A DNA stretch of 32,000 nt from an uncultured Hyphobacterium sp. (lineage in GTDB: Bacteria > Bacteroidota > Bacteroidia > Cytophagales > CCMP332), in contig CAYGPM010000001.1 of NCBI GenBank assembly GCA_964351965.1, positions 605,912 through 637,911 of the forward strand. Direction: 5' to 3'. The notes under the pieces are model-generated. The model was not told the DNA's origin. It saw nothing but the letters and a program-made list of their open reading frames with translations, and searched no databases. Of the stretch, positions 3,215-32,000 are shown piece after piece. The position numbers and the translations under genes were made by a program. Positions within the stretch are counted from its first letter, which is position 1. Each line of letters starts with the position of its first letter.

Positions 3215-3264
3215 GCTTATCTACAAAGCTAAGTCAATTCTTTTAAAGCAAGGTAACCAATGAA

Positions 3265-4812: not shown

Positions 4813-4817
4813 AGGTG

Positions 4818-9264: not shown

Positions 9265-9436
9265 ATTGGTAAATGTAAATCCTAAATATTGGAAAATAAA
9301 AAAGCCCACAACCAAAATGTATGGCTATGGGCTAATATTTTGTGAAGGCTCTTAATTAGAATGCAATACCGAAATTAATGGCAAATCCTAGGCCAATACC
9401 GGAGCTTTCACAATATGCTTTTTGTGAGATTCACGA

Positions 9437-13295: not shown

Positions 13296-13367
13296 AAATT
13301 CTATATTTTTTGATATTATTAGAAGAGTAATTGTTTGCTAAATTAACAGTCTAAATTAAAATTTGAT

Positions 13368-14456: not shown

Positions 14457-14458
14457 TT

Positions 14459-16833: not shown

Positions 16834-16932
16834 GGTGATTGAAAGATTACCTTTTGAATAATTGATGTATTAAAGTATGGAATGTGTAGATGTGTGTTGG
16901 TCAGAGAAAACATCTCTTTACTTAGAAACTAT

Positions 16933-17004
16933 ATGCTAAAAAGGCTTTACTTACTTTTTTTATTAGTTGTTGGAATATCTGTTGGGCAGGCGGTTTATGG
17001 GCAG
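16933..17004 (+). other. Sec signal peptide of the giant protein
   Basis: MLKRLYLLFLLVVGISVGQAVYGQ has a basic n-region (KR), a hydrophobic core and a small-residue cleavage region. The exact cleavage site is not determinable by eye. Confidence 0.7.
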
Positions 17005-20000
17005 TGTTCACTTCTTTCAGGAAATACAACCGAGGATTTTCAAACATCTGGAGTTTGTGGACCAACGACGGTAACTTGGACAATTACTTATGATTTTATT
17101 GCACCTGTTGATCCTAGTTTAACATATATTCGGTTTAATTGGAACGACCCAGGTACAAATAGAACAACTCTTTTAGCCACACCTTCGGCAGGAAACACAA
17201 AATTTACAGCTACTGCTTCATTTACCTATCCAGTAGGTGGAAATTGTATATATGAACCAATAGTAGTTCTAAGTTATGATCAGGACATGGATGGAAATTT
17301 GAATAATAGTACGTGCTTTTCATCTGCAATTCAAAAAACAGTTTCTTCTTGGCAGGATGACAATTCCAATGGAGGTATTTTAGCCATAAACCCTTTGAAT
17401 CAACCAGTATGTTATGAAGATTCTACTGTTGCTTTTCAGTTTCAAGATGCAACATTTCCGAACTGTGATGTTTCTGTTGAGCCAGACAGGCCAAATCAAT
17501 TAACAAGATGGGTTCAGTTTATTTATGGAACAGGTGCTGGCCCTCACATTCCAAATATTTCTATTGATACTGGTGGGGGAACAGTGATTTTAACTGATGC
17601 AGTAGGAAACCTAACTGCAGCAGCTCCCTTTGCGGGCCCGATTATTGAAATTCCACCCATAGTTTTACAAGCGAACCTTAATGAGTTAACATATCCAATT
17701 GACCATCCGGTCGCAGGAGTTGGAAACATAGGTGATGTTTTTGAAATTACACTACGGAATTGGAATACATGTAACCCTTATGACACATTACTATTTGATG
17801 CTTTACCTCCAACCGATCCTGTAAATGGAGACTTTCCTTCAATTACAACTACTGCACAACTAGAAATAATCGGCCCAACAGTCCCTACCGCTGGTCCAGA
17901 CCAAGGGGTGTGTGGTAATTCAACAAATTTAGCTGGAAATGTTATCGCCAATGGCGTCGGTCAATGGAATCAAATAGGTGGAACTCTTGGAGGTATTAAT
18001 ATTACGAACCCGATTAATCCAACCACTGCTGTAAACGTTGTTGGTTCAAATTTTGGCACTTATTTACTTGAATGGAGCTCTACCTTGGGAGCGTGTGCTT
18101 CCGGAAGAGATACTGTTGAAATTACTTTTTTCGAGCCACCTTCAGCATCAAATGCCGGGCCGCCACAAACTATATGCGGAAATTCCACGACTTTGGCAGG
18201 TAATAATCCTGCTGTTGGAACGGGAGAATGGTTTTTTGTAAGTGGTCCGGCAGGATTCACAATTTCCAACCCATTAAGCAGAACTTCTGCATTTTCCTCA
18301 ACAGCCTTTGGTACTTATGTTTTAGAATGGAGAATTGAAAACGGGGTATGCCCTGATGAAGTGGACCAGGTTACAATTGTTTTTGAAGAGGCGGCCAATG
18401 CTGCTGATGCCGGACTAGATGATACCACTGCCTGCAATTTCTTGTCATATACTTTGCAAGGAAATGCAGCAACTACACCTGGGACTACAGGTACCTGGTC
18501 ATTGGTGAATGGACCTGGGACAATTGTAAGTTTTGCTCCTAATGCAAACGATCCAAATGCAGTTGTTACATTTTCGAATTACACAACCGGAACACAGAGA
18601 TATCGATTGAGATGGAGAATTTCATCTGGGACGGGAATCTGTCCAAATGAAGATGACTTTGTAAACATTAGAGCATTTGAAACACCCACAACAGCTACCA
18701 CAGGAGGTCCTATTACCCTTTGCGGTTTGACTACTACATTAAATGGTAATGCAGCGGCTGTGGGCCAAGGAACTTGGTCACAAACGAGTGGTCCCGGCAC
18801 AAGTGTATTCGTCAATGAAAATAACCCTACAACCGATGTGACTGTAAGCGTTGCAGGTACTTATGATTTTGAATGGTCGATTGAAAATGGAAATTGTCCT
18901 CCCTCAACTGCAACAACGACTGTAACATTTGCTCCACCTCCTACAACACCTGACGCAGGTGCTGATGATTCAGTTTGTGCCGTTGCGACTTATAATCTTT
19001 CCGGTAACACTATTACTTTAGGAACCGGTACCTGGCAACAAATTGGTGGCCCTGCCATTGTTGGTGGGTTTACTCCGAATGCAAATGATCCAAATGCACA
19101 ATTTACTTTTTCAACAGAAGGTATTTATATTTTTGAATGGAGCTCTTTCCTTAATGCTTCATGCCCTACTTTAAGAGATACTGTTGAAATTACCTTATTT
19201 AACTCTCCTACAAATGCGGTGGTTGATTTACCAAACCCAATCACAACTTGTGCTTTGAACAATATTCCAATTAGCGCCAACACTGGTGCTAATGTGATTA
19301 CAAGTGGATTTGGAAGATGGTTTCAATCTTCAGGTCCAGCAACGCTAACAATAACAGACTCCTTAGATAATACAACGACAGTTACAGCTCCTGTATCAGG
19401 CGTTTACACTATAACTTGGGAAGTTTCGAACGGCCCATGTTCTCCTCCATCTACAGATGTTTTGACTTTAAATCTTTCTTCACCAAGCCCATCCATCCCT
19501 GGAGCTGATGATACAGTTTGTGCTGATAATTATACACTAAGTGCTAATACTCCTGCAATTGGAACCGGCGCATGGTCTGTTGGAACGCAACCTCCCGGTG
19601 GTACATTCACCATATTACCTGCCGGAGACCCGAATGCTACATTTACAATTACAAATGGTATTTATGGTGCTTATACTTTGATTTGGACAATCTCAAATCC
19701 CGGCTGTCCTGATGAGGTAGATAGCTTAACAATTAGATTAGATGAAAACCCAAGCCCGGCAAGCGTTATTCCTGATTTTCAAATATGTGCGGATACCGCT
19801 ACTTTGGGAGCTGTAACACCAACAGTGGGAAGTGGTCAATGGCAGCTAATTTCCGGAGCCGGTCCTGTAAGTTTCAATCCAAATTCAGCTAATCCGAATG
19901 CAGTTGTTACTATACCTCCGGTTTCAAACACAGCTGTGTATGATTTTGAATGGACTACATCAAATGGCGTTTGTCCGGATTTATCTGATGTTCTTCAAGT

Positions 20001-23000
20001 TACGTTTCATGAAATTTCAACAACGCCTGCTGCAGGTGGAGATTTTGAAGTTTGTAATACCTCTACAAATTTGGCAGGAAATGCTATTACAGTAGGTACA
20101 GGACAGTGGAACCCATTACCTTTATTAAGCACAGGTCCTATTACCATAACAACACCAAGTTCGCCAACGACTAATGTCACTATCCCTGGTTTTGTAAATG
20201 ATTCCGATACCTTCTTCCTTGAATGGACGTCTCAAAATGGCAATTGCGTCACGCTTAGAGATACTGTTAGAGTAATTTTCCATGACGACCCAACTGTTTC
20301 AGCTGCGGGTTCTGATATTGATATCTGTGCCGATACTGCACAATTAAATGCAAATATTCCGGTGGTAGGAAATGGACAATGGATTATTGCTTCAGGTTCT
20401 GCAACATTAGATAATAACACTGATCCTACTACTATTGTTAGAGCTAATCCGTTTGGAGGCGATTCATCGATTGTAGTTTTAACTTGGAGAATTAGCAATG
20501 GCAATTGTGCACCATCTAACAATAATGTTCAGGTCGTATTCTATAAAGATCCTACAGTAGCAGCTGCCGGCGCTGATGATTCTGTTTGTGCTTTAACTTA
20601 TACTTTAGATGGAAATTTTGATGCAATCGGAAAGGGAGATTGGAATCAAGTCTCCGGACCGGGAACTTCTGCATTTGTAAATCAAACACTGTTTAATACT
20701 GATGTAACGGTTACACAATACGGAACTTATTTATTTGAATGGACCAATGCGAATGGCGCTTGTCAAACCACAAGAGATACTGTTCAAATCAGATTTGATG
20801 AGTTCCCTTCATCAGCTTTTGCTGGAGTAGATGACACAGTTTGTGATGTCACTACAATATTAGCTGGTAATAATCCTGCAGTAGGAAATGGTGTTTGGAC
20901 TGTTACTTCTGCACCTTCCGGAACTGCAGTGGCTACTTTTGTTGATAGTTCTTTATTTAATACAAGTGTTACAGTAAACGAGGTTGGAGCATACACTTTC
21001 CAATGGACTATTTCAAATGGTACCTGTGCAGACTCAAGTGATCAAGTGATAATCATATTTGCATCTTCAAATTCAAATACAGGAATCGCCGGGGATACCT
21101 CACTTTGTGTGAACGAGAATAATAAAGTATATACTGTACCATTTGTTGCGGGAACGACTTACGAATGGTTTATACCTGCTGGTATAACTGTACAGTTTGG
21201 AGGAGGAATAAATGACAATTTTGTAGTCCTTACCTACCCAACTGCCGGACCATTTGAATTAAAAGTATTACCAACAAACAGTTTTGGTTGTGCTTCAGAT
21301 ACTCAAACTACTGATGTTGTTGTTTATGACTTTCCAACGAGAGACGCCGGGCCTGACTGGGCAATATGTAGCGGTGATACAGCATTTTTGGGTGGAACTC
21401 CTACAGCTACAGGAGGTTCAGGATTTTATAATTATTCTTGGTCGCCGACTAGCGGATTGGACGATGCAAGCATTGCTAATCCAATAGCAACACCGATCTT
21501 CTCTAGAACATATTTCTTAACTGTTACTGATTCGCTTGCGGGCTGTGCTTCTATTATCGATACGGTCAATGTCACTGTTAATCCTAGTCCATCTTCTAAT
21601 TTGCTTGGACTTACACCTTTTATTTGTGAGGAGGACACAGGAATTTTACAAATATTCTTCAATACAGGTACAGGACCGTTTTCCGTAGGAATAAGCAACG
21701 GTGTTGATACCACCATTTATCCTAGCTTGACTACAGGAGATAGTATTCTTGTAACGCCGGATTCTACTCTTACCTATCGCGTTGTTTATTTACTTGACTC
21801 TGCTACCCTGTGTACAGGAACATCATTTTCAGGAGCTCCAATTATTAATGTAAGACCACTTCCAAATGCAGTTTTGACCAGTCTTGATACTGTCATTTGC
21901 GAAGGCGATGCGGCTAATCTTAACTTAAATATTTCCGGACCTACTCCACAAATTTATACGGTAGAATATGCCATAAATGGGAGAGATACAACGATAGTCA
22001 ATCTTTCAGGATCATCAACAGTTATTACAGTTTTCCCAGACAGCTCTTCAGAATATACTTTGATTTCCGTAACGGATAATTTTAGAGGCTGCCGTGTTGA
22101 TGCACCTTCGGTGAGATTTACGGACAGTGTATTTATTCAAGTTGATTCATTACCTAGAGCAAATCTGGTAGGTGCCGATACAATTTGCGTTGGAGATTCT
22201 GCTGCGTTAGTTGTGAATTTACCAACCGGAGACGGGCCATTTGATTTAACAATCCAAGGATTGGGCGTCGTAAATAATTATAATAGTGGTGATACCATTT
22301 GGGTAAAACCAACAAGTACCAGAAACTATATAATTACTCAGGCTGCTGATACAAATGGATGTACTACAACATCGACTACACTATTAACTGGAAATGCTCT
22401 TATAGTTGTAAATCCTCTTCCTGTAGCAAACCTAATTGGAACAAATACAATTTGTATTGGCGATAGTACACCACTTCAAATAAATGTTACCACAGGAACT
22501 AGTCCATTTGAAGTTGTATTAAGCAATGGAGATACTATTAATCCATATAATAATGGAGATCAGTATTTTGTGAGCCCATTAGTTACAACTACATATTCTT
22601 TGGTTTCAGTTCTTGACACAAATGGCTGTTATACTTCAGCACCTTCATCCAGTTTAACGGGAACTCCACAAGTTACTGTTAATCCTTTGCCTACTGCTCA
22701 GGTAGCTTCAGATGACACAATATGTTTTGGAGATAATGTCATTCTCACCTTCAGTTTTACAGGAGCAGCTCCTTATACTTTTACCTTCAGAGATAACTCA
22801 AGAAATGTCGATAGCACTTTGACAACTACTGGTGCTTTGACCTCAAGAAATGTAACGGTGAGCCCGGATACAACAACCCTTTATACCTTAGTAAGTGTTC
22901 AGGGAGCGAATGGATGTATTGACAGCATCAATAATCCAAATAGCCCAACCTTCGGAGATACCGTAGAAATTGTAGTCGACAGTTTACCGGTAGCCACAAT

Positions 23001-26000
23001 CGTAGCAGATCTTCCAACAGATACGATTTGCAATGGAGACTTGGCTTATTTATTTGTGAATGTATCTACGGGTCCAGGTCCTTATACGATTACAGTCAAT
23101 AATGGCGTAGGAACGATCAACAATTACAACAGCGGAGATACCATCACAGTATCACCATCAGTAACTACAGAATATCAGATCACAAGTTTATTGGATCAAA
23201 ATGGATGTAGCGTGAGCTTCGGTCATCCGAATATCAATGACACAGCAAGAATTGTTGTTAATCCATTACCGGTTGCGAACTTAACAGGAACGGCGACGAT
23301 CTGTCTTGGCGATACCACACCTTTAAGTGTAGCTATTGCTCCTGGAACGGGACCATTTAGTGTAGTTATAAATGATGGAACTACTAATGATACTATTAAT
23401 AGCTATGTAAGCGGAACCAATATTCCGGTAGCCCCAATTGTAACAACGACCTATAGTTTGGTTTCTGTTCTGGATAGCTTCGGATGTTATACGACTATTC
23501 CAAGTGCGAACTTAACGGGTACACCTCAGGTAACTGTTAACCCATTACCAACAGCACAAATCACACAGGATGATACAATCTGTTTCGGAGATAATGTAAC
23601 ACTGAACTTCAGCTTTACAGGAACAGCTCCATTCATAGTTATTTACAAAGACAATAGCACAGGCATAAATGATACAGTTACTACAACTGGATTATCAACA
23701 TCTGCAACAGCAGTAGTAAGTCCTGACACAACAACGCTTTACAGTTTAGTAAGTGTGCAAGGTGCTAATGGTTGTATTGATAGCATTAACAATCCTATTA
23801 ATCCAACTTTCGGAGATACGGTTGAAATCGTAGTAGACAGTTTACCGGTAGCAACGATTGTAGCAGATCTTCCAACAGATACGATTTGCAATGGAGACTT
23901 GGCTTATTTATTTGTGAATGTATCTACGGGTCCAGGTCCTTATACGATTACAGTCAATAATGGCGTAGGAACGATCAACAATTACAACAGCGGAGATACC
24001 ATCACAGTATCACCATCAGTAACTACAGAATATCAGATCACAAGTTTATTGGATCAAAATGGATGTAGCGTGAGCTTCGGTCATCCGAATATCAATGACA
24101 CAGCAAGAATTGTTGTTAATCCATTACCGGTTGCGAACTTAACAGGAACGGCGACGATCTGTCTTGGCGATACCACACCTTTAAGTGTAGCTATTGCTCC
24201 TGGAACGGGACCATTTAGTGTAGTTATAAATGATGGAACTACTAATGATACTATTAATAGCTATGTAAGCGGAACCAATATTCCGGTAGCCCCAATTGTA
24301 ACAACGACCTATAGTTTGGTTTCTGTTCTGGATAGCTTCGGATGTTATACGACTATTCCAAGTGCGAACTTAACGGGTACACCTCAGGTAACTGTTAACC
24401 CATTACCAACAGCACAAATCACACAGGATGATACAATCTGTTTCGGAGATAATGTAACACTGAACTTCAGCTTTACAGGAACAGCTCCATTCATAGCTAT
24501 TTACAAAGACAATACAACAGGCATAAATGATACAGTAACTACAACTGGATTATCAACATCTGCAACGGCAGTAGTAAGTCCTGATACAACGACGCTTTAC
24601 AGTCTAGTAAGTGTGCAAGGTGCTAACGGTTGTATCGATAGTGTCAATAATCCTATTAATATCACTTTCGGAGATACAGTTGAAATTGTAGTCGACAGTT
24701 TACCTGTAGCCACAATCGTAGCAGATCTTCCAACAGATACGATTTGTAATGGAGACTTGGCTTATTTATTTGTGAATGTATCTACGGGTCCTGGTCCTTA
24801 TACCATTACAGTCAATAATGGCGTAGGAACGATCAACAATTACAACAGCGGAGATACCATCACAGTATCACCATCAGTAACTACAGAATATCAGATCACA
24901 AGTTTATTGGATCAAAATGGATGTAGCGTGAGCTTCGGTCATCCGAATATCAATGACACAGCAAGAATTGTTGTTAATCCATTACCGGTTGCGAACTTAA
25001 CAGGAACGGCGACGATCTGTCTTGGCGATACCACACCTTTAAGTGTAGCTATTGCTCCTGGAACGGGACCATTTAGTGTAGTTATAAATGATGGAACTAC
25101 TAATGATACTATTAATAGCTATGTAAGCGGAACCAATATTCCGGTAGCCCCAATTGTAACAACGACCTATAGTTTGGTTTCTGTTCTGGATAGCTTCGGA
25201 TGTTATACGACTATTCCAAGTGCGAACTTAACGGGTACACCTCAGGTAACTGTTAACCCATTACCAACAGCACAAATCACACAGGATGATACAATCTGTT
25301 TCGGAGATAATGTAACACTGAACTTCAGCTTTACAGGAACAGCTCCATTCATAGTTATTTACAAAGACAATAGCACAGGCATAAATGATACAGTTACTAC
25401 AACTGGATTATCAACATCTGCAACAGCAGTAGTAAGTCCTGACACAACAACGCTTTACAGTTTAGTAAGTGTGCAAGGTGCTAATGGTTGTATTGATAGC
25501 ATTAACAATCCTATTAATCCAACTTTCGGAGATACGGTTGAAATCGTAGTAGACAGTTTACCGGTAGCAACGATTGTAGCAGATCTTCCAACAGACACAA
25601 TTTGTAATGGGGATTTGGCTTATCTATTTGTGAATGTTTCAACAGGCCCCGGACCTTATGATATAACCATAAATAATGGAGTTGGTACAATAAACAATTA
25701 TGTCAGCGGAGATACAATTACAGTATCGCCATCCGTAACTACTGCATATCAAATCACTAGCTTATTAGATCAAAATGGATGTAGCGTGAGCTTCGGTCAT
25801 CCGAATATTGATGATACAGCAACTATAGTTGTTAATCCATTACCAAGTGTTACTTTAAGCATCGATACTAACAGAATTTGTTTTGGTGATACGACTAACC
25901 TTCGAGTTGCACTTAATGTAGGAACAGGACCGCTAGAGTTTGTAGTGAACCCGAATGTAAATGACACAATCAGAAACTTTGATCCTTTAACTGATTTTGT

Positions 26001-29000
26001 ACCGGTTTCACCAAATGCGACTACTACTTATAGTATAAACTATGTCATTGACGCAAATGGATGCCAATCTGTAGCGCCAAGTGCCAATATTACAGGTAAT
26101 CCTCAGTTGAATATCAACCCACTACCTACTTTGCAAATTTCTGATTCGACTACAATTTGTTTAGAGGATCAAGTTGTCTTGACATTTAGCATGTCCGGCT
26201 CAGCACCTTATACATTTACGTATCGCGACGAATTAACTGGAACAGATTCTACTATTACTACTGTCGGTGGGCTAACTACGAGAACAGTTACAGAATTTCC
26301 ATTGGACACAACCATGTATACTTTAGTAAGCATCACCGATGCGCAAGGTTGTACTGATAGTATTAATAACGCTCCAATAAATCCAAACTTTGGAGACACT
26401 ATTGTAGTGAATGTTAACCCTCTTCCAATTACAACTTTAACAGTAGTTGAGCCTACTGATACAATTTGCTTTGGTGACAATGCTTTATTTATCGTAGATG
26501 TTACCAATCTTGGAGATGCTCCCGGTCCTTATAATTTAGAGATTAGCGGTGGGGTAGGTATAATAAATAATTATACCAGCGGCGACACAATTGTGTTTGC
26601 ACCGAATACCACAAGCAATTACAATATTGTTTCATTGACAGATGCAAATGGTTGTTCAGTTCTGGCCGGTCATCCAAATTTACCTGATACTGTGCGAGTT
26701 GTTGTTAAACCACTTCCTGTAGTTGAGTTGCTATTGGACGATAATGAAATTTGTCTTGGAGATTCTGCAAGATTGTACTGGAGAGTACCAGTTGGAAGTC
26801 CTCGATTTGACTTTGTTCTAAACACTGATCCAAATGATACCATCCAATCTGTTACTGTTGGAGATTCTATTTGGGTAAGCCCAACGGATACTACTACCTA
26901 TAGTATTATTTACTTCAGCGATTCATTTGGTTGTACTGTTACAGCACCAAGCTCAAATATTTCAGGAACACCAACGCTAATTGTAAATCCTTTACCGGAT
27001 GCAAGCATTTCAATAAATAAGGATACGGTTTGTTTTGGAGAGTTGACAACAATTACTTTCAACTTAACCGGACCGAATAGTCCTTATACATATCAAATTG
27101 ATACTACCGGAAATATTCTAACAGGATTTAATACTATTGATGGTTCTACAAGATCATTTGTACTTGGTATTGGAGATCATGATTTTAAATTAATAGAAGC
27201 AATTGATGCCAAGGGTTGTGTGGCTAATATCGCTCCTGCCGATTCCTTGGTTGAAGTATTTGTTCATGAATTACCAACCGCCTCAATTAGTGGAGACACT
27301 AGCGTATGTGATCTTGAACCATTCGTATTGAATTTCAACTTAACCGGAAATGATCCGCTGAATGTTTATTTCACAGATGGTACAAATAATTATGTGAGAC
27401 AATTAACTGCACCAACCGATACTGCAATAATTTCATTACCGGCTTCAGTGAATCCTTACTTCTTCCAGATTGACTCTGTTGTGGATAGCAATTCACCTGA
27501 AAGCTGTAGAGCTACAGATATCACAGGATTAGTAACTGTTCAGGTATTTGACAGACCACAAATTGAGATTAACTCCTTTGACACGACAATCTGTGATGGT
27601 GACCAAGCAATATTATCATTTGATATTTCAGGAGGAAGAGCGCCATTTGAAGTAGATCTTTCCGTGGACGGAACAACAGTCGATACAACTTTATTAAATA
27701 TCGCTGATGGATCTATTTATCTGGTAAGGCCAAATGACACCACTACTTACACAATTTTAGAAATAAGAGAATCTGTTACAACAGAAGCATGTGTTGGTAC
27801 AATTGGAATAAAATCGAGTTTCACTGTAAATGTAAATCCATTGCCAACGGCTAACTTGACTCTTGTGGGTCAAGATACCAAGTGTTTTGGTGATAGTATT
27901 ACAGTCAACATCCAATTCACCGGACAAGCACCTTATAATTTATCATTATTGACAAATTATGCAGGTCCTATTACTATGAACGGAATTCAAACAAACGATA
28001 CAACATTTAACGTATCGAGCAGTTTCCCTGGTTTTGGTAATACAATTTCTCTATTTACTTTAAGTGATGGTCATACACCGACTTGTTCTGTAATTCAAGG
28101 TGATCCACAACTTACGGGAGGTGTAACATTCAACCTTAATGATTTACCTACGGCCAGTTTAAATCCGCTTGGATTGACATCTATTTGTAGAGGTGATTCA
28201 GCAAATCTATTAGTTGTAGTCTCACAAGGTGATTTACCATATACTGTATATATTTCTGACGGAAGTACAAACTATGTAGACTCTCTACTTATTACCACGG
28301 GTAATACGGGTACTATTGCTGTAGGACCTCAAAATACAAGTACTTTCCAAATTGACTCTGTAAGAGACGGTAGCTTACCAGATAACTGTAGAGCACAAAG
28401 TATAAATGGTTCGGTACAAATTTCTGTTGAAGATAGACCTACAGTAAGTATTTCAGGAATAGATACAATTTGCTCCTTTCAAAACAGTCAATTCCAGATT
28501 CAAACTGGCGGAACCGGTCCTTGGTTAGTAACTTATACTAATGGTACAGATACTCTACCAACATTTGTATCGAGTAGCCCGCAAACGGTAACGTTATTTA
28601 ATCCACCGGTTGGCTTGAATGTCTATTCAATCGTTTCTATTTCAGATAATGGAACAGTGCCTTCTTGTCCTGCAGACTCTTTGACTTCAGATACAGCATA
28701 TGTATTTGTTAACGACTTACCGACGGCAAATCTTACAGGTGATACCACGATTTGTAATGGTGATCCTTTACCGGTTTATCTAAACTTTGGTGTAACCAGT
28801 GGACCATTTGATGTTACCATTACCGATGGAACCAATAACTATAATTTCACAGGATTAAGTCAACAGGATACAGTATTGATTCCATATCCGGGACCAGGGT
28901 TCTTCATATACAGGTTCGCAACAGTAAGAGATGATAATACGAATTGTGAGCCTTTAGTGACCACCGGACAAGCGATAGTTCAGGTAAGAGAAATACCAAC

Positions 29001-31737
29001 AGTTACACTTTCTGTTGTTGGAAACAATATCATATGCGGAAAAGACACTTTAGGTAAATTCTTGCAATTTAATTTTGATGTACCAAATATCTATGATGTC
29101 ATTCTGCAAAAGGGTGGTGTAGATGTGGATACATTATTCGGAATAGGAAACGGAACCATACTTCAGGCTCCAGACTTGCAGGTTGGTAATAATGTTTATA
29201 CCGTTGCTTCTGCTACTTATTCTCTTGATCCGAAATGTGGTCTCAATGTGGTTAACAATGCGAATATTTTTGTCAACGCAGACCCAACCATTACCATTCA
29301 GGATAATGATACAATTTGCGTAGGCAACACTGTTACTCTTACCCTCAATGCTACAGGCTTACCAAATTATACAGTACAGTATATTGGAAATGCTGGAATA
29401 CAACCGACTACTTCAGCTAATAATACTTGGACAATCACTGCAAGTCCTACAACAACTACCTCGTTTAGAGTATTGAGTATTACTGATGGTAATGGTTGTT
29501 CTACAAATAACATCCTTCCTTCTGATTCTACAGAGGCTACTATTGTTGTGAATCAATTGCCAACGGCATCATTAAAAGTTGATGGATTCTTCTCGAATAG
29601 TGTAACATTCTGTGAGGAAGATACTATAGCTCTTCAGTATAATCTTACTGGTAATGGGCCATTTGATGTTATTGTGAATGATAATCTCGGTAATTCCTAT
29701 GTAAGAAATAATGTGAGTAATCTGGATACATTGTTATTAATTAATCCAATTCCTCCTGTAGGTTCTACAACTCAGTATTTCCTAACTCAGGTAAATGATA
29801 ATAACAATCCGGCATGCGCCCCAACAAGTTTGGGTAACCCGGTAAATATTACTGTTGATTCACTGCCTACTGCAAATATTTCAGGCAACACCACTATTTG
29901 TAGCGGTAACACTGCAACGTTGACATTTACTTTCACCGGTACAGGTCCTTGGACGTTCAGATATTTTGATGGCACACTCGTTTCAGCAACACAAGCATCT
30001 AATGTTTCTACGTATACGTTGAATGTATTACCAAGTGTAACTACGACTTATACAATATTTGATGTGGTAGATCAAGGTACGACGAATCAATGTGCGATAG
30101 ATTCGACGCATCCAAATGTAACGGGAAGCGTGACAGTTGTCGTTGAGCCACCTGTAATTGCGGATTTCACTTTTAACTCTGACGATGCTTGTGGCGATCC
30201 TACGGTAACATTTACGGATCAAACAACGCCGGCTGCCATTTATTCATATGATTGGGATTTTGGAGATGGAAATAATTCAACAATTCAAAGCCCAACACAT
30301 CAATATGCAAATACAGGCTTGAATGTTATAGATTTCACAGTCAATATGGTGGTTACCTCACCTCTTGGGTGTGTTGATTCAATTGATAAAGTAGTTCAGG
30401 TAAAACCAGATATTACAGCGGTCGCTACTGCGGATGTTCAGGTGGGTTGTTCGCCTTTAGAAGTTAACTTCTCATCAAGCACGAATGCTTCGAGTTTCCA
30501 ATGGTTCTATAATAATAATGGCACACTGGAATCCTTAAGTCCAATTGCAGCTGTAAGAGAAACTTTTGAGAATAATGGGCTAACCACTCAAATATTCAAT
30601 GTTACTTTAGTCACCACAAATCAGTTTGCTTGTACTGATACATTAATAATACCGATAACGGTGCATCCAAAGCCTCAACCTACGTTTACGGCTAATCCGG
30701 TTCAACAGAACTGGCCACCAAGCCCTGTTACATTTACAAATGGTACGCCTAGTTTGAATGACAATACTTATTTCTGGAACTTTGGAGATACTGCAAATGG
30801 AACAAGCACACAAGTTAGCCCGACATACGATTTTGGTACATTCGGTAATTTCACTGTGACTTTAATTGCAACCACACAAAATGGTTGTATAGATTCTACA
30901 ACGAGATTAGTGACTATTTTCCCAAGTCTGCCTGTAGCTGATTTTGTAGGCACAACTGAAGGCTGTGTTCCGTTTGAGTTTACATTTAGGAATGCTTCTC
31001 AATTTGGATTAAGTTATAAATGGGAATTCAGTGATGGCAGCGAGTACTTCAGTGAAAATGTCACAAAAACATTCTTTGATCCGGGAGTATATGATGTCAA
31101 ACTTATTACAACAGGCATCAATGGATTTAAAGATTCAATCGAACGCTTTGCAGTTGTAACAGGATATCCAAATCCAAGTGCCAACTTCTTCTCTAGAGAT
31201 ACGGTATTTGTAGGATTGAATGAGCTCAACTTCTCAAATGAATCAAGAAATGCTTCTGAGTATTTCTGGGACTTTGGAGATGGAACAACTTCTGACGAAA
31301 GATCACCAACGAAAAACTATAGATTCGAAGGGCTATATGATGTAACTATGGTTGCATTCAATGTAGTTAACGATAGTATCTCGTGTACAGATACTGCTTC
31401 GAAAGTAATTTACGTATTACCTGTTGGAGATATCATTGTGCCGAATGCCTTTACGCCTGGTGAAGGTGGTCCGACCGGTGGTTCAGTAAATCCTTTTGAC
31501 AGATTCAATAATACCGTCTTCTATCCAGTAATTAGAAAAGAATTTGTAGCATTGAAATTTGAAGTATTTAACCGTTGGGGAGAGCCTATATTCCAGTCTA
31601 ATACAGTAAATGTAGGATGGGATGGCTATGTAAACGGAACGCCGGCCCCTCAAGGTGTATATATTTACAGAGTACAGGTTGAGTTTGCTGATGGTACTAA
31701 AGAAACCAAAGTTGGAGATGTTACTCTGCTTAGATAA
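16933..31737 (+). CDS. giant (~4,934 aa) T9SS-secreted cell-surface repeat protein / putative SprB-like adhesin with type-B CTD
   Basis: A single 14.8-kb open frame in AT-rich DNA. The Met at 16933 gives the signal peptide MLKRLYLLFLLVVGISVGQAVYGQ; the ORF-track start at 16882 adds 17 non-signal residues. Modular repeat architecture, detailed in the sub-features below. The C-terminus matches the gliding-motility-associated / T9SS type-B sorting domain. Confidence 0.92.
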   Translation: MLKRLYLLFLLVVGISVGQAVYGQCSLLSGNTTEDFQTSGVCGPTTVTWTITYDFIAPVDPSLTYIRFNWNDPGTNRTTLLATPSAGNTKFTATASFTYPVGGNCIYEPIVVLSYDQDMDGNLNNSTCFSSAIQKTVSSWQDDNSNGGILAINPLNQPVCYEDSTVAFQFQDATFPNCDVSVEPDRPNQLTRWVQFIYGTGAGPHIPNISIDTGGGTVILTDAVGNLTAAAPFAGPIIEIPPIVLQANLNELTYPIDHPVAGVGNIGDVFEITLRNWNTCNPYDTLLFDALPPTDPVNGDFPSITTTAQLEIIGPTVPTAGPDQGVCGNSTNLAGNVIANGVGQWNQIGGTLGGINITNPINPTTAVNVVGSNFGTYLLEWSSTLGACASGRDTVEITFFEPPSASNAGPPQTICGNSTTLAGNNPAVGTGEWFFVSGPAGFTISNPLSRTSAFSSTAFGTYVLEWRIENGVCPDEVDQVTIVFEEAANAADAGLDDTTACNFLSYTLQGNAATTPGTTGTWSLVNGPGTIVSFAPNANDPNAVVTFSNYTTGTQRYRLRWRISSGTGICPNEDDFVNIRAFETPTTATTGGPITLCGLTTTLNGNAAAVGQGTWSQTSGPGTSVFVNENNPTTDVTVSVAGTYDFEWSIENGNCPPSTATTTVTFAPPPTTPDAGADDSVCAVATYNLSGNTITLGTGTWQQIGGPAIVGGFTPNANDPNAQFTFSTEGIYIFEWSSFLNASCPTLRDTVEITLFNSPTNAVVDLPNPITTCALNNIPISANTGANVITSGFGRWFQSSGPATLTITDSLDNTTTVTAPVSGVYTITWEVSNGPCSPPSTDVLTLNLSSPSPSIPGADDTVCADNYTLSANTPAIGTGAWSVGTQPPGGTFTILPAGDPNATFTITNGIYGAYTLIWTISNPGCPDEVDSLTIRLDENPSPASVIPDFQICADTATLGAVTPTVGSGQWQLISGAGPVSFNPNSANPNAVVTIPPVSNTAVYDFEWTTSNGVCPDLSDVLQVTFHEISTTPAAGGDFEVCNTSTNLAGNAITVGTGQWNPLPLLSTGPITITTPSSPTTNVTIPGFVNDSDTFFLEWTSQNGNCVTLRDTVRVIFHDDPTVSAAGSDIDICADTAQLNANIPVVGNGQWIIASGSATLDNNTDPTTIVRANPFGGDSSIVVLTWRISNGNCAPSNNNVQVVFYKDPTVAAAGADDSVCALTYTLDGNFDAIGKGDWNQVSGPGTSAFVNQTLFNTDVTVTQYGTYLFEWTNANGACQTTRDTVQIRFDEFPSSAFAGVDDTVCDVTTILAGNNPAVGNGVWTVTSAPSGTAVATFVDSSLFNTSVTVNEVGAYTFQWTISNGTCADSSDQVIIIFASSNSNTGIAGDTSLCVNENNKVYTVPFVAGTTYEWFIPAGITVQFGGGINDNFVVLTYPTAGPFELKVLPTNSFGCASDTQTTDVVVYDFPTRDAGPDWAICSGDTAFLGGTPTATGGSGFYNYSWSPTSGLDDASIANPIATPIFSRTYFLTVTDSLAGCASIIDTVNVTVNPSPSSNLLGLTPFICEEDTGILQIFFNTGTGPFSVGISNGVDTTIYPSLTTGDSILVTPDSTLTYRVVYLLDSATLCTGTSFSGAPIINVRPLPNAVLTSLDTVICEGDAANLNLNISGPTPQIYTVEYAINGRDTTIVNLSGSSTVITVFPDSSSEYTLISVTDNFRGCRVDAPSVRFTDSVFIQVDSLPRANLVGADTICVGDSAALVVNLPTGDGPFDLTIQGLGVVNNYNSGDTIWVKPTSTRNYIITQAADTNGCTTTSTTLLTGNALIVVNPLPVANLIGTNTICIGDSTPLQINVTTGTSPFEVVLSNGDTINPYNNGDQYFVSPLVTTTYSLVSVLDTNGCYTSAPSSSLTGTPQVTVNPLPTAQVASDDTICFGDNVILTFSFTGAAPYTFTFRDNSRNVDSTLTTTGALTSRNVTVSPDTTTLYTLVSVQGANGCIDSINNPNSPTFGDTVEIVVDSLPVATIVADLPTDTICNGDLAYLFVNVSTGPGPYTITVNNGVGTINNYNSGDTITVSPSVTTEYQITSLLDQNGCSVSFGHPNINDTARIVVNPLPVANLTGTATICLGDTTPLSVAIAPGTGPFSVVINDGTTNDTINSYVSGTNIPVAPIVTTTYSLVSVLDSFGCYTTIPSANLTGTPQVTVNPLPTAQITQDDTICFGDNVTLNFSFTGTAPFIVIYKDNSTGINDTVTTTGLSTSATAVVSPDTTTLYSLVSVQGANGCIDSINNPINPTFGDTVEIVVDSLPVATIVADLPTDTICNGDLAYLFVNVSTGPGPYTITVNNGVGTINNYNSGDTITVSPSVTTEYQITSLLDQNGCSVSFGHPNINDTARIVVNPLPVANLTGTATICLGDTTPLSVAIAPGTGPFSVVINDGTTNDTINSYVSGTNIPVAPIVTTTYSLVSVLDSFGCYTTIPSANLTGTPQVTVNPLPTAQITQDDTICFGDNVTLNFSFTGTAPFIAIYKDNTTGINDTVTTTGLSTSATAVVSPDTTTLYSLVSVQGANGCIDSVNNPINITFGDTVEIVVDSLPVATIVADLPTDTICNGDLAYLFVNVSTGPGPYTITVNNGVGTINNYNSGDTITVSPSVTTEYQITSLLDQNGCSVSFGHPNINDTARIVVNPLPVANLTGTATICLGDTTPLSVAIAPGTGPFSVVINDGTTNDTINSYVSGTNIPVAPIVTTTYSLVSVLDSFGCYTTIPSANLTGTPQVTVNPLPTAQITQDDTICFGDNVTLNFSFTGTAPFIVIYKDNSTGINDTVTTTGLSTSATAVVSPDTTTLYSLVSVQGANGCIDSINNPINPTFGDTVEIVVDSLPVATIVADLPTDTICNGDLAYLFVNVSTGPGPYDITINNGVGTINNYVSGDTITVSPSVTTAYQITSLLDQNGCSVSFGHPNIDDTATIVVNPLPSVTLSIDTNRICFGDTTNLRVALNVGTGPLEFVVNPNVNDTIRNFDPLTDFVPVSPNATTTYSINYVIDANGCQSVAPSANITGNPQLNINPLPTLQISDSTTICLEDQVVLTFSMSGSAPYTFTYRDELTGTDSTITTVGGLTTRTVTEFPLDTTMYTLVSITDAQGCTDSINNAPINPNFGDTIVVNVNPLPITTLTVVEPTDTICFGDNALFIVDVTNLGDAPGPYNLEISGGVGIINNYTSGDTIVFAPNTTSNYNIVSLTDANGCSVLAGHPNLPDTVRVVVKPLPVVELLLDDNEICLGDSARLYWRVPVGSPRFDFVLNTDPNDTIQSVTVGDSIWVSPTDTTTYSIIYFSDSFGCTVTAPSSNISGTPTLIVNPLPDASISINKDTVCFGELTTITFNLTGPNSPYTYQIDTTGNILTGFNTIDGSTRSFVLGIGDHDFKLIEAIDAKGCVANIAPADSLVEVFVHELPTASISGDTSVCDLEPFVLNFNLTGNDPLNVYFTDGTNNYVRQLTAPTDTAIISLPASVNPYFFQIDSVVDSNSPESCRATDITGLVTVQVFDRPQIEINSFDTTICDGDQAILSFDISGGRAPFEVDLSVDGTTVDTTLLNIADGSIYLVRPNDTTTYTILEIRESVTTEACVGTIGIKSSFTVNVNPLPTANLTLVGQDTKCFGDSITVNIQFTGQAPYNLSLLTNYAGPITMNGIQTNDTTFNVSSSFPGFGNTISLFTLSDGHTPTCSVIQGDPQLTGGVTFNLNDLPTASLNPLGLTSICRGDSANLLVVVSQGDLPYTVYISDGSTNYVDSLLITTGNTGTIAVGPQNTSTFQIDSVRDGSLPDNCRAQSINGSVQISVEDRPTVSISGIDTICSFQNSQFQIQTGGTGPWLVTYTNGTDTLPTFVSSSPQTVTLFNPPVGLNVYSIVSISDNGTVPSCPADSLTSDTAYVFVNDLPTANLTGDTTICNGDPLPVYLNFGVTSGPFDVTITDGTNNYNFTGLSQQDTVLIPYPGPGFFIYRFATVRDDNTNCEPLVTTGQAIVQVREIPTVTLSVVGNNIICGKDTLGKFLQFNFDVPNIYDVILQKGGVDVDTLFGIGNGTILQAPDLQVGNNVYTVASATYSLDPKCGLNVVNNANIFVNADPTITIQDNDTICVGNTVTLTLNATGLPNYTVQYIGNAGIQPTTSANNTWTITASPTTTTSFRVLSITDGNGCSTNNILPSDSTEATIVVNQLPTASLKVDGFFSNSVTFCEEDTIALQYNLTGNGPFDVIVNDNLGNSYVRNNVSNLDTLLLINPIPPVGSTTQYFLTQVNDNNNPACAPTSLGNPVNITVDSLPTANISGNTTICSGNTATLTFTFTGTGPWTFRYFDGTLVSATQASNVSTYTLNVLPSVTTTYTIFDVVDQGTTNQCAIDSTHPNVTGSVTVVVEPPVIADFTFNSDDACGDPTVTFTDQTTPAAIYSYDWDFGDGNNSTIQSPTHQYANTGLNVIDFTVNMVVTSPLGCVDSIDKVVQVKPDITAVATADVQVGCSPLEVNFSSSTNASSFQWFYNNNGTLESLSPIAAVRETFENNGLTTQIFNVTLVTTNQFACTDTLIIPITVHPKPQPTFTANPVQQNWPPSPVTFTNGTPSLNDNTYFWNFGDTANGTSTQVSPTYDFGTFGNFTVTLIATTQNGCIDSTTRLVTIFPSLPVADFVGTTEGCVPFEFTFRNASQFGLSYKWEFSDGSEYFSENVTKTFFDPGVYDVKLITTGINGFKDSIERFAVVTGYPNPSANFFSRDTVFVGLNELNFSNESRNASEYFWDFGDGTTSDERSPTKNYRFEGLYDVTMVAFNVVNDSISCTDTASKVIYVLPVGDIIVPNAFTPGEGGPTGGSVNPFDRFNNTVFYPVIRKEFVALKFEVFNRWGEPIFQSNTVNVGWDGYVNGTPAPQGVYIYRVQVEFADGTKETKVGDVTLLR
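17875..21069 (+). repeat. 12 tandem class-A domains (~85-95 aa each)
   Basis: Recurrent pattern AGxDxxVC..(L/Y)xLxGN.P..GxGxW....GP......P.N.P...V.....GxYxFxW(T/S)I.NG.C....DxVxIxF. Counted by eye on the translation. The copies are diverged at DNA level. Confidence 0.8.
21070..21336 (+). other. singleton PKD-like domain
   Basis: GDTSLCVNENNKVYTVPFVAGTTYEWFIPAGITVQ...FELKVLPTNSFGCASDTQTTDVVV. This fits the C..x..YxV....YxWxxPxG....GCxS pattern common in T9SS cargo. Confidence 0.55.
21337..21579 (+). other. singleton Ig-like domain with GGxGxYxYxWxP motif
   Basis: AGPDWAICSGDTAFLGGTPTATGGSGFYNYSWSPTSGLDDASIANPIATPIFSRTYFLTVTDSLAGCASIIDTVNVTV. This domain type is frequent in gliding-motility CTD proteins. 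Confidence 0.55.
21580..30150 (+). repeat. 30 tandem class-B domains (~92-102 aa each)
   Basis: Recurrent pattern (P/S/D)LPxAxLxG.DTIC.GDxxxLxxxx.G.GP(F/Y)xxxx..G......(Y/F).SGDxIxVxPxxTTxYxLxSVxDxNGCxxx......G...(V/I)xVN. Counted by eye: B1 starts at 21580 and B30 ends at 30150. Confidence 0.8.
22981..25554 (+). repeat. three near-identical, in-frame 858-bp tandem units (each 286 aa, three class-B domains)
   Basis: The anchor AGTTTACC(G/T)GTAGC recurs at 22981, 23839, 24697 and 25555, an exact 858-nt spacing. Units 1 and 2 show no differences over 23002-23638. Units 1 and 3 differ at 4 synonymous sites, all near the 5' end. Confidence 0.9.
30151..31422 (+). repeat. five PKD domains
   Basis: ADFTF...YDWDFGDGNNS...H.Y...G...V, with further copies carrying FWNFGD, YKWEFSDG and YFWDFGDGTTS. 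The second copy is degenerate (FQWFYNNNG). Confidence 0.8.
31423..31734 (+). other. T9SS type-B C-terminal sorting domain (gliding-motility-associated CTD, CHU_C-like)
   Basis: VGDIIVPNAFTPGEGG...N..F...........FEVFNRWGEPIFQS......WDGY.NG..APQGVYIYRVQVEFADG.....GDVTLLR. This has the type-B hallmarks PNAFTP, FNRWGE, WDG and GVY.Y. The type-A KxxxK-like ending is absent. Confidence 0.85.
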
Positions 31738-31748
31738 GAATTATTAAT

Positions 31749-32000
31749 ATGAGAAAAAGAATATATCATATTGCCTTTTTAATCTTGATCTTAAGTGGTT
31801 TTACTAAAGCCCAGGATTATCAATTCACGCAGTTTTACGCGGCACCATTATATTTAAATCCGGCATTTGCGGGATCTTCAGAATGGGCTAGAGCCAGTGT
31901 GCTTTACAGATCACAATGGCCTGCGGCTGCTGCAAAGTTTACCACGATGTATGCCAGCTTTGATCAGAATTTACCTGGGATAAGAAGTGGCGCGGGAATT
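31749..32000 (+). CDS. PorP/SprF-family type IX secretion system membrane protein (5' part, runs off the window)
   Basis: Not in the ORF track because no stop lies within the window. ATG at 31749, 11 nt after the giant gene's stop. Translates as MRKRIYHIAFLILILSGFTKAQDYQFTQFYAAPLYLNPAFAGSSEWARASVLYRSQWPAAAAKF..., i.e. a signal peptide followed by the PorP/SprF N-terminal signature Q(F/Y)....P..(L/V)NPA(F/Y)AG ... YR.QW. Confidence 0.8.
   Translation, partial: MRKRIYHIAFLILILSGFTKAQDYQFTQFYAAPLYLNPAFAGSSEWARASVLYRSQWPAAAAKFTTMYASFDQNLPGIRSGAGI

What the first reader, a model, noticed from the sequence alone, without database searches (positions are those of the whole stretch)
16933..32000. 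SprB/SprF-style two-gene module: a giant type-B-CTD surface protein with a dedicated PorP/SprF-family partner 11 nt downstream
Seen in sequence: a 4,934-aa secreted repeat protein ends in a type-B T9SS sorting domain. A PorP/SprF-family gene starts 11 nt after its stop on the same strand, so co-transcription is likely. Established knowledge: in Flavobacterium johnsoniae, the motile adhesin SprB (type-B CTD) needs the adjacent SprF. Type-B-CTD cargo in general tends to depend on a cognate PorP/SprF-like protein encoded next to it. Inference: this is a cargo/adaptor pair for a very long cell-surface filament, with a possible role in adhesion or gliding. It differs from the sprCDBF arrangement because nothing SprC/SprD-like lies upstream; the upstream neighbour is a divergent M28 peptidase. 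Its domain composition (class A, class B, PKD) is not the SprB repeat as I remember it. This is the only candidate system in the window, and its specific function is unknown.
Basis: partly seen in the sequence, partly recalled or inferred. Interest (0 to 1): 0.7.

Follow-up and report, generated by a model that had tools for sequence, protein, structure and literature searches.

The report
Giant T9SS surface filament with carrier
A 4,934-residue cell-surface filament protein of a Bacteroidota bacterium sits directly upstream of the outer-membrane carrier that most likely exports and anchors it, a well-known gene arrangement, so this is a new example and not a new kind of system.

Summary
An intact ORF (16933-31737, 4,934 aa) has a signal peptide. 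Its last 105 aa pass the T9SS type-B sorting-domain models and fall below the type-A cut-off. After 11 nt, a PorP/SprF-family gene starts at 31749 and is cut by the window end after 84 codons.

Related loci confirm the pair. A colinear ortholog in the same gene neighbourhood (L088: 4,930 aa, 52% identity end to end) is followed by a 350-aa PorP/SprF gene. Three more full-length proteins with the same N-terminal head (L049, L089, L090) also have a PorP/SprF gene directly downstream on the same strand. A fifth (L091) has one gene in between, and the partial contig L085 also shows the pair.

It is not SprB/SprF itself. There are no SprB repeats and no sprC/sprD. Orthologs of the carrier are 23-25% identical to SprF and have one C-terminal cysteine (…PCPKF), not SprF's Cys-Pro-Cys.

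The best reading is a type-B cargo and its cognate carrier, building a fibril that would be roughly 200 nm if extended, probably an adhesin. Whether it rides the gliding track cannot be decided. This arrangement is established in Flavobacterium johnsoniae, so I rate it a new member of a known kind, interest about 0.3.

Side observations: three near-identical 858-nt units inside the gene, mirrored in the ortholog, and a lone conserved cysteine in the carrier tail.

The parts
16933..17004 (+). Signal peptide of the giant protein (aa 1-24, MLKRLYLLFLLVVGISVGQAVYG, then Q at +1)
   Evidence: Read directly from the translation. The start is supported by orthologs whose head domain begins at residues 25-27. 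No signal-peptide predictor was run.
17005..17937 (+). N-terminal 'head' domain (aa 25-335), all-beta, no Pfam or NCBIfam model; probable distal, ligand-binding end
   Evidence: No family hit in this region. AlphaFold2 model with mean pLDDT 85 and pTM 0.69. Only generic beta-sandwich matches in the PDB, TM <= 0.29.
17953..30216 (+). Array of 44 tandem Ig-like domains of about 90 aa (aa 341-4428): 13 'class A' (341-1398) and 31 'class B' (1468-4387), each with conserved cysteines
   Evidence: Self-profile search. Pfam calls them Ig-like_POM152, K319L-like_PKD and PKD_6. The ortholog L088 also has 44.
23071..25644 (+). Three near-identical 858-nt units (U1-U3), each encoding three Ig-like domains (286 aa)
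   Evidence: Units are 96.0-98.7% identical in DNA; U1 and U3 are identical in protein; the longest exact repeat is 791 nt. A short-read contig of the same organism breaks exactly at aa 2046, the start of U1.
30220..31419 (+). PKD-domain region (aa about 4429-4829; four PKD_4/PKD stretches)
   Evidence: Pfam PF18911 121.8 bits with 4 stretches and PF00801 with 4 stretches. The same layout is precomputed for the ortholog fragment L085. Boundaries are approximate.
31420..31734 (+). T9SS type-B C-terminal sorting domain (aa 4830-4934), ending ...GDVTLLR
   Evidence: TIGR04131 37.3 bits (cut-off 35), PF13585 44.2 bits (cut-off 27), type-A model below its cut-off. Alignable at 29-35% identity to the C-terminal end of the protein encoded upstream of SprF orthologs.
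31735..31748 (+). Stop codon TAA (31735-31737) plus 11-nt spacer (31738-31748); no room for a terminator
   Evidence: Sequence read directly. Orthologous junctions: 16 nt (L085), overlapping TAATG (L088), 10 nt (L089), 41 nt (L049), 73 nt (L090).
31749..32000 (+). 5' part (84 codons) of a PorP/SprF-family outer-membrane carrier gene, with signal peptide MRKRIYHIAFLILILSGFTKA|QD; cut by the window end
   Evidence: PF11751 62.5 bits (cut-off 22.3) and TIGR03519 72.6 bits. It is 73% identical to the N-terminus of the 347-aa L085 protein, which scores 236.8 bits on TIGR03519.

Best explanation
This is a two-gene unit encoding a type IX secretion (T9SS) type-B substrate and its dedicated PorP/SprF-family carrier.

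Proposed mechanism. The 4,934-aa protein crosses the inner membrane by Sec. Its C-terminal type-B domain then takes it through the T9SS translocon. There the CTD is captured by the beta-barrel carrier encoded 11 nt downstream. The carrier pulls the substrate out of the translocon and stays bound to it as its outer-membrane anchor. Tight linkage on one transcript keeps cargo and carrier roughly stoichiometric.

The product would be a fibril of about 50 beta-sandwich domains: head, 44 Ig-like domains, 4 PKD domains. Fully extended it would be on the order of 200 nm. A conserved, unannotated head domain sits at the distal tip, and the most likely function is adhesion.

Shown here: gene structure, family memberships, conservation of the pair and its independence from neighbouring genes. 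Inferred from work in F. johnsoniae and P. gingivalis: the export and anchoring mechanism. Inferred from architecture alone: adhesion and fibril length. Not decided: whether the fibril is static or is carried along the gliding track.
For: Type-B CTD passes its cut-offs and type A falls below its cut-off. The downstream gene is PorP/SprF family; a 73%-identical relative is full length and scores 236.8 bits on TIGR03519 against a cut-off of 90.55.

The pair is conserved. L088 is colinear (52% identity over 4,930 aa, 44 Ig-like domains) and syntenic (lplA, yaaA, rnd, TANGO2, M28). Its carrier start overlaps the cargo stop, and the next gene is convergent. L085 has a 16-nt gap and a hairpin plus T-run four bases after the carrier stop. 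L089, L090, L049 and L091 carry the same head domain and a type-B CTD in unrelated neighbourhoods, and each has a PorP_SprF gene downstream on the same strand.

Of 149 representatives of the head family, 51 end in a CTD like the window's; this covers most of those in the first 45 listed that do not look truncated. The carrier orthologs group with PorP-like proteins that neighbour TIGR04131 cargo.

Literature. Type-B substrates need the cognate PorP/SprF protein encoded immediately downstream and appear to be made stoichiometrically with it (PMC12618676). Type-B proteins stay bound to PorP-like proteins at the surface (PMC9143113).
Against: Only 84 of about 350 codons of the carrier are in the window, so its barrel and tail are known only from relatives that are 57-73% identical. 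No T9SS core gene (sprA, gldK-N, porV) lies in the 32 kb, so a T9SS in this organism is inferred. Nothing here tests secretion, binding or adhesion. The head domain has no informative structural match. In the wider carrier clade the cargo gene is often divergent, not upstream, so co-transcription is not a universal rule.
Confidence: 0.82

Rival explanations
1. A track-coupled, mobile gliding adhesin, functionally a second SprB. The carrier's periplasmic C-tail cysteine forms a disulfide with GldK of the gliding track, so the fibril is driven along the cell surface. This refines the cargo/carrier reading; it is not an alternative to it.
For: In all five carriers of the head family the tail cysteine (…PCP[KSV]F-COOH, or VCPKFLR in L091) is the only cysteine of the mature protein. 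SprF's tail is …ISN-Cys324-Pro-Cys326…, read from the mutagenesis primers and conserved in 103 metagenome contigs. The disulfide from SprF Cys326 to GldK Cys343 attaches SprB to the track, and P. gingivalis PorG makes the same kind of link with a single cysteine (PMC12635249). At least one non-SprB type-B substrate, Fjoh_4750, moves helically (PMC12618676). The estimated fibril length is similar to the ~200 nm quoted for SprB.
Against: The twin-cysteine motif that defines SprF is absent. The carrier orthologs are only 23-25% identical to SprF. No sprC/sprD is present. The CPxF ending occurs in 73 of 77 PorP-like proteins sampled, including those next to porU and those from contigs labelled Bacteroidales (several from rumen samples), so it may serve something other than motility. 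Some type-B substrates are static (Fjoh_3952). The tail of the window's own carrier is not in the window.
Confidence: 0.28
2. A static surface fibril for cell-cell, cell-substrate or particle adhesion, anchored by its carrier but not coupled to the gliding machinery, like Fjoh_3952/Fjoh_3951.
For: [quoted passage not shown] There are no SprB repeats, no sprC/sprD and no CxC motif. The head-domain family spans lengths from about 850 to 4,930 aa, which looks like a general adhesin family.
Against: A lone, strictly conserved periplasmic cysteine in the carrier tail needs some explanation. No experiment bears on mobility in this family.
Confidence: 0.5
3. An assembly artefact or decaying gene: the giant ORF is inflated or chimeric because of mis-assembled repeats, and the adjacency is incidental.
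For: The gene contains exact repeats of 637-791 nt. Short-read assemblies of the same organism break at the first repeat unit. The exact 4,934-aa product is not on record in the collection.
Against: The reading frame is open for 14.8 kb. An independent ortholog on a 3.2-Mb contig is colinear over its full length, has the same 44 Ig-like domains and a length within 4 residues (4,930 aa), and has three repeat copies at a similar position. Only the exact copy number in the window depends on the assembly.
Confidence: 0.04

Closest known systems
F. johnsoniae type-B substrate / cognate PorP-SprF-like shuttle pairs (e.g. Fjoh_3952/Fjoh_3951; Kulkarni 2019 as cited in PMC12618676; Paillat 2025)
   Same: A large repetitive putative adhesin with a TIGR04131 CTD. 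A PorP/SprF-family gene lies immediately downstream on the same strand. The pair recurs without other linked T9SS genes.
   Different: The body and head domains are unrelated to any characterised substrate, as far as could be tested. The size (4,934 aa) is at the top of its own family. No experimental data exist for this family.
SprB/SprF of the sprCDBF operon (F. johnsoniae gliding adhesin and its carrier)
   Same: A giant fibrillar type-B substrate followed directly by its PorP-family carrier. The CTD is alignable at 29-35% identity over about 123 aa. The expected length is similar. A cysteine next to a proline sits in the carrier's C-tail.
   Different: No SprB repeats and no sprC/sprD. The carrier orthologs are only 23-25% identical to SprF. 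The tail is …PCPKF-COOH with one cysteine, against …ISNCPCTQSPVHD with two.
P. gingivalis PG1035 / PorP / PorE complex (PMC9143113)
   Same: A type-B CTD protein held at the cell surface by binding a PorP-family beta-barrel.
   Different: In P. gingivalis, PorP is described as a component of the T9SS and forms a complex with PorE and PG1035 (PMC9143113). Here the carrier is a dedicated paralog encoded with its cargo. No PorE-like gene lies nearby.

Membership tests
T9SS type-B CTD substrate (TIGR04131 / PF13585 CHU_C) | C-terminal domain scores at or above the curated model cut-offs | tested here: met
   TIGR04131 37.3 bits against 35; PF13585 44.2 bits against 27 for the last 105 aa. On the whole protein TIGR04131 gives 29.4 bits, so the margin is narrow. 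The L085 ortholog fragment gives 36.8 bits.
T9SS type-B CTD substrate (TIGR04131 / PF13585 CHU_C) | Not a type-A CTD (TIGR04183) | tested here: met
   TIGR04183 scores 21.7 bits, below its cut-off of 23 and well below the type-B score.
T9SS type-B CTD substrate (TIGR04131 / PF13585 CHU_C) | N-terminal Sec signal peptide, with the domain at the extreme C-terminus | tested here: met
   The hydrophobic leader MLKRLYLLFLLVVGISVGQAVYG|Q and a CTD ending at the last residue were read directly. Orthologs have equivalent leaders. No dedicated predictor was run.
T9SS type-B CTD substrate (TIGR04131 / PF13585 CHU_C) | Secretion depends on the T9SS and on the cognate carrier | not testable with these tools
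   Needs genetics or proteomics. T9SS core genes are not in the window.
PorP/SprF family outer-membrane carrier (TIGR03519 / PF11751) | Matches the family model above its cut-off | tested here: met
   PF11751 62.5 bits against 22.3 for the 84-aa fragment. TIGR03519 72.6 bits against 90.55, with only model positions 2-84 of 292 available. The 73%-identical full-length relative scores 236.8 bits.
PorP/SprF family outer-membrane carrier (TIGR03519 / PF11751) | Full-length protein of about 320-350 aa with a signal peptide | tested here: inconclusive
   The signal peptide is present. The rest lies beyond the window end. Orthologs are 331-350 aa.
PorP/SprF family outer-membrane carrier (TIGR03519 / PF11751) | Encoded next to a type-B CTD gene | tested here: met
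   11-nt gap in the window. The same holds in L085, L088, L089, L090 and L049, and in L091 with one gene in between.
SprB/SprF gliding adhesin system (sprCDBF) | Cargo built of SprB repeats (PF13573) | tested here: not met
   PF13573 is absent from the Pfam hits at E <= 0.01. Only the last ~123 aa align to proteins encoded upstream of SprF orthologs.
SprB/SprF gliding adhesin system (sprCDBF) | sprC and sprD upstream in the same operon | tested here: not met
   The upstream neighbour is a divergent M28 peptidase. The other 14 upstream genes are housekeeping or unannotated.
SprB/SprF gliding adhesin system (sprCDBF) | Carrier has the invariant Cys-Xaa-Cys motif in its periplasmic C-tail (PMC12635249) | tested here: not met
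   Not readable in the window. Relatives L085, L088, L089, L090 and L091 have a single cysteine (…PCPxF or VCPKFLR). All 103 SprF-type tails recovered read ISNCPCTQ[ST]PV…, and all 79 full-length SprF orthologs have exactly two cysteines in the mature protein.
SprB/SprF gliding adhesin system (sprCDBF) | Carrier orthologous to SprF | tested here: not met
   23-25% identity over the full length, E 1e-8 to 1e-11: a distant paralog.
SprB/SprF gliding adhesin system (sprCDBF) | Helical movement on the cell surface; required for gliding | not testable with these tools
   Needs live-cell tracking and mutants.

The most novel reading that the evidence does not exclude
The lone, conserved C-terminal cysteine of the carrier (…PCPxF-COOH) is a one-cysteine counterpart of SprF's Cys-Pro-Cys. 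It would link the carrier by a disulfide to GldK/PorK. The head-domain family would then be a second, SprB-independent family of track-driven adhesins. More broadly, most PorP-family proteins (73 of 77 sampled end in CPxF, including those beside porU) would be covalently coupled to the T9SS/gliding track. That would extend the disulfide mechanism shown so far only for SprF and PorG.
Probability: 0.22. Interest if true: 0.6.

Novelty: new member of a known kind. Interest (0 to 1): 0.3.

Why it matters
On its own it matters little. It is one more type-B substrate with its cognate PorP/SprF carrier, the arrangement already worked out in Flavobacterium johnsoniae.

Its value is as a catalogue entry and a test case in three ways.

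1. It defines an unannotated but widespread family of T9SS surface proteins: at least 150 clusters at 50% identity. The family shares an N-terminal head domain with no Pfam model. In the members examined here it is paired with its own carrier.

2. Carriers of this family have a single tail cysteine where SprF has a twin-cysteine motif. That gives a natural experiment on whether disulfide coupling to the GldK track is general among type-B carriers. It also bears on whether the tail predicts mobile or static behaviour.

3. The central three-domain units are kept identical within each species while diverging between species. This is a clean example of concerted evolution in a giant adhesin gene. 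It is also a practical warning that short-read assemblies break such genes.

Tried and rejected
1. My first neighbourhood statistic was wrong and is withdrawn. A CTD profile iterated from the window's CTD reported a 'type-B' ORF next to about 58 of 80 PorP-like genes. An NCBIfam scan of those C-termini showed the profile had drifted. 45 are PorU sortases with a type-A-like CTD, and only 17 are TIGR04131.

2. Recovering the window's own carrier failed.
- The exact giant protein, tried from two start codons, and the M28 protein are not on record.
- A homology search with the 84-aa fragment returned only fragments at 49-61% identity.
- The genome scan gave at best 59% identity.
- An exact 28-mer is absent from the JGI metagenomes.
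- The source organism is represented only by broken Logan contigs and by an NCBI contig I could not fetch.

3. Tandem Repeats Finder found nothing because the repeat period (858 nt) exceeds its 500-nt limit. Offset-identity scans replaced it.

5. There is no PDB sequence relative of the carrier.

6. The sigma-70 promoter scan upstream of the gene found nothing, which is uninformative for Bacteroidota.

7. There is no tRNA gene and no Rfam match in the window.

8. I could not establish the taxonomy of the source organism beyond Bacteroidota.
Full report
**Observation.** The window holds one very long ORF, 16882..31737 on the plus strand. The ATG at 16933 gives 4,934 aa starting MLKRLYLLFLLVVGISVGQAVYG|QC, a Sec-type leader. 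This start fits relatives whose conserved head domain begins at residues 25-27. The stop codon is TAA at 31735-31737. Eleven bases later, an ATG at 31749 opens a second ORF that runs off the window after 84 codons.

The last 105 aa of the giant protein score 37.3 bits on TIGR04131, the type-B sorting domain (cut-off 35). They score 44.2 bits on PF13585 CHU_C (cut-off 27). The type-A model reaches 21.7 bits, under its cut-off of 23. The 84-aa fragment scores 62.5 bits on PF11751 PorP_SprF (cut-off 22.3). It scores 72.6 bits on TIGR03519, matching model positions 2-84 of 292.

**Anatomy of the giant protein.** A profile built from one repeat and iterated on the protein itself finds 44 tandem Ig-like domains of about 90 aa between residues 341 and 4428. 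A profile from a 'class B' copy finds 31 of them (1468-4387). The profile seeded on a 'class A' copy grows to cover all of them, so the two classes are homologous.

Pfam labels these domains Ig-like_POM152, K319L-like_PKD and PKD_6. It finds four PKD_4/PKD stretches between the array and the CTD, and no SprB repeat. The protein is rich in Thr, Val, Asn, Gly and Ser and has 102 cysteines.

Residues 25-335 match no Pfam or NCBIfam model.

**The head domain.** A word-indexed search found only six fragmentary relatives. An exhaustive HMMER search of 1.84 billion representatives filled its 150-hit list at E <= 0.001, with 95 hits at E <= 1e-10. The match lies at the N-terminus of most of them, and the proteins reach up to 4,930 aa. 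Of 149 representatives, 51 end in a CTD like the window's (…GDVTLLR); this includes most of the long proteins among the first 45 listed.

The window's protein is thus the longest-class member of a recurrent, unannotated family: head, then a variable number of Ig/PKD domains, then a type-B CTD.

An AlphaFold2 model of the head built from 22 family sequences is confident (mean pLDDT 85, pTM 0.69) and all-beta. Foldseek against the PDB returns only generic tandem beta-sandwich proteins with TM <= 0.29. The fold gives no specific functional lead.

**Is the pair real?** The window's own carrier could not be completed. Related loci settle the question.

- **L085.** The C-terminal 375 aa of a cargo (85% identical to the window) are followed after 16 nt by a 347-aa protein. 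That protein is 73% identical to the window's 84 aa and scores 236.8 bits on TIGR03519 (cut-off 90.55). A 9-bp hairpin with a T-run starts four bases after its stop.
- **L088.** This locus lies on a 3.2-Mb contig and is an ortholog in the same neighbourhood: lplA, yaaA, rnd, TANGO2-like, then a divergent M28 peptidase. Its giant protein has 4,930 aa, aligns in one piece at 52% identity and also has 44 Ig-like domains. A 350-aa PorP_SprF gene follows, with its ATG overlapping the stop (TAATG). The next gene is convergent.
- **L089, L090, L049 and L091.** Four more head-family members (2,592, 1,920, about 1,826 and 2,158 aa) sit among unrelated genes. Each has a PorP_SprF gene downstream on the same strand. 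The gaps are 10, 73 and 41 nt in the first three. In L091 a 532-aa PD40-like gene lies in between.

The conserved unit is therefore the pair itself.

**A correction to my own work.** I first reported that most of 80 PorP-like loci from the genome scan had a type-B ORF next door. Checking the C-termini against NCBIfam showed that my iterated profile had drifted. 45 of the neighbours are PorU sortases, and only 17 carry TIGR04131.

The PorP-like proteins fall into two groups. One lies head-to-head with porU. The other lies beside type-B cargo, often divergently. The L085 carrier is closest to the second group, at 40-42% identity.

**Relation to SprB/SprF.** Upstream genes in the window are housekeeping: idsA-like, rnr, an ABC ATPase, lipB, manA, pgi, yraN, an SNF-type transporter, lplA, yaaA, rnd, TANGO2-like and M28. 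Nothing resembles sprC or sprD.

To compare with SprF, I took its tail sequence from the mutagenesis primers of Liu et al. (PMC12635249, supplementary data 7). It reads …QSISN-Cys324-Pro-Cys326-TQSPV. A degenerate DNA pattern for that peptide recovered 103 contigs encoding SprF orthologs, all ending ISNCPCTQ[ST]PV[HR]x.

The carrier orthologs L085 and L088 are only 23-25% identical to these. The giant protein shares only its last ~123 aa, at 29-35% identity, with the proteins encoded upstream of them. So the window's module belongs to the same two families as SprB/SprF at the CTD and carrier level. It is not the sprCDBF system.

**Mechanism.** Published work supports the following.

- Type-B substrates each use a dedicated PorP/SprF-family protein, usually encoded immediately downstream. 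It is needed for secretion, appears to be made stoichiometrically with the substrate and is not recycled (PMC12618676).
- The substrate stays bound to it at the surface (PMC9143113; PMC12635249).

Applied here, the route is Sec export, passage through the translocon, capture of the CTD by the co-encoded barrel, then lateral release with the barrel as the anchor. With about 50 beta-sandwich domains the fibril would be on the order of 200 nm if extended. This is an inference from domain count, and ~200 nm is the length quoted for SprB. The conserved head would sit at the far end, which suggests adhesion.

**Mobile or static?** Liu et al. showed that SprF's tail cysteines are dispensable for export. 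They attach the adhesin to the gliding track through a disulfide to GldK Cys343. P. gingivalis PorG makes the equivalent bond with a single cysteine. Paillat et al. showed that some type-B substrates move helically (SprB, Fjoh_4750) and others are static (Fjoh_3952).

The five carriers of the head family have one cysteine in the mature protein. In four it is four residues from the C-terminus, in …PCP[KSV]F; in L091 it is in VCPKFLR. 73 of 77 PorP-like proteins sampled end in CPxF.

A lone conserved periplasmic cysteine next to a proline recalls SprF's CPC and invites the idea of a disulfide to GldK/PorK. Three points argue for caution. The motif is not the twin-cysteine motif. It also occurs in carriers beside porU and in contigs labelled Bacteroidales. 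And the window does not contain this part of its own gene. I found no mention of this tail in the papers read. I rate track coupling at roughly one in four.

**Repeats.** Three 858-nt units, each encoding three Ig-like domains, at 23071-25644 are 96.0-98.7% identical. Exact runs reach 791 nt, and units 1 and 3 encode identical protein.

The L088 ortholog has three perfect copies of an 852-nt unit at a similar position: an exact 1,767-nt match at offset 852. The two proteins are only 52% identical to each other. This points to continuing homogenisation of the units within each lineage, not to two coincidental recent triplications.

A short-read contig of the window's organism ends at residue 2046, exactly where unit 1 begins. 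The copy number in the window therefore rests on the quality of its assembly.

**Verdict.** It is also an ordinary instance of a known arrangement: a new member of a known kind, interest about 0.3. The most novel reading not excluded is that the single tail cysteine couples this carrier, and perhaps most PorP-family proteins, to the GldK/PorK track.

Noticed in passing
window 23071-25644; L088 about 12556-15174: Three near-identical 858-nt units (three Ig-like domains each) in the window's gene. Three perfectly identical 852-nt units lie at a similar position in the 52%-identical ortholog, and total length and domain count (44) are conserved. This looks like concerted evolution (gene conversion or unequal crossing-over) inside a giant adhesin gene.
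   Followed up: partly
L081 (Logan ERR3534989 contig), end of contig = window about 23070: A short-read assembly of the same organism truncates the giant gene at residue 2046, exactly at the start of the first near-identical unit. Genes of this family are mostly fragmented in public short-read data, which is probably why the word-indexed search found only six fragments.
   Followed up: yes
L001-L080 (e.g. L001 3063-7115 minus strand, with the PorP-like gene from 7106 plus strand): In about 45-50 of the 80 genomes whose PorP-like protein best matches the window's 84 aa, that gene lies head-to-head with porU, the T9SS sortase (NF033707). It is not next to a type-B cargo. These proteins have a distinct tail with two cysteines about 12 residues apart (…C…CPSF).
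   Followed up: partly
C-termini of PorP-like proteins in L001-L091 (e.g. L085 2238-2255, L088 21825-21842): 73 of 77 full-length PorP/SprF-like proteins end in Cys-Pro-x-Phe-COOH, after a basic linker that follows the last predicted strand. In the carriers of the head-domain family this is the only cysteine of the mature protein. I found no description of this motif in the T9SS papers I read.
   Followed up: partly
L092-L194 (metagenome contigs): The SprF C-tail peptide ISNCPCTQ[ST]PV[HR]x is conserved almost to the residue in 103 contigs. All 79 full-length SprF orthologs have exactly two cysteines in the mature protein, both in this motif.
   Followed up: yes
L091 9949-11547; L063 and L068 about 8410-9988: In some relatives an extra gene of about 525-532 aa (weak PD40 hit in L091) sits between the type-B cargo gene and the PorP/SprF gene. 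It may be a third component of some modules. The window has no room for it.
   Followed up: no
window 16933-17010 and 31749-31815: Both proteins have glutamine as the first residue after the predicted signal-peptide cleavage site (…VYG|QC and …TKA|QD). From my own knowledge, this fits the tendency of Bacteroidota exported proteins to start with a cyclisable Gln.
   Followed up: no
window 8560-9315 (minus strand) and 14459-15208 (plus strand): Two upstream genes have no NCBIfam hit. Precomputed Pfam on the identical Logan genes gives DNA_pol_B_exo1/RNase_H_2-like for the first (called at 234 aa) and TANGO2 for the second. They are unrelated to the finding.
   Followed up: no
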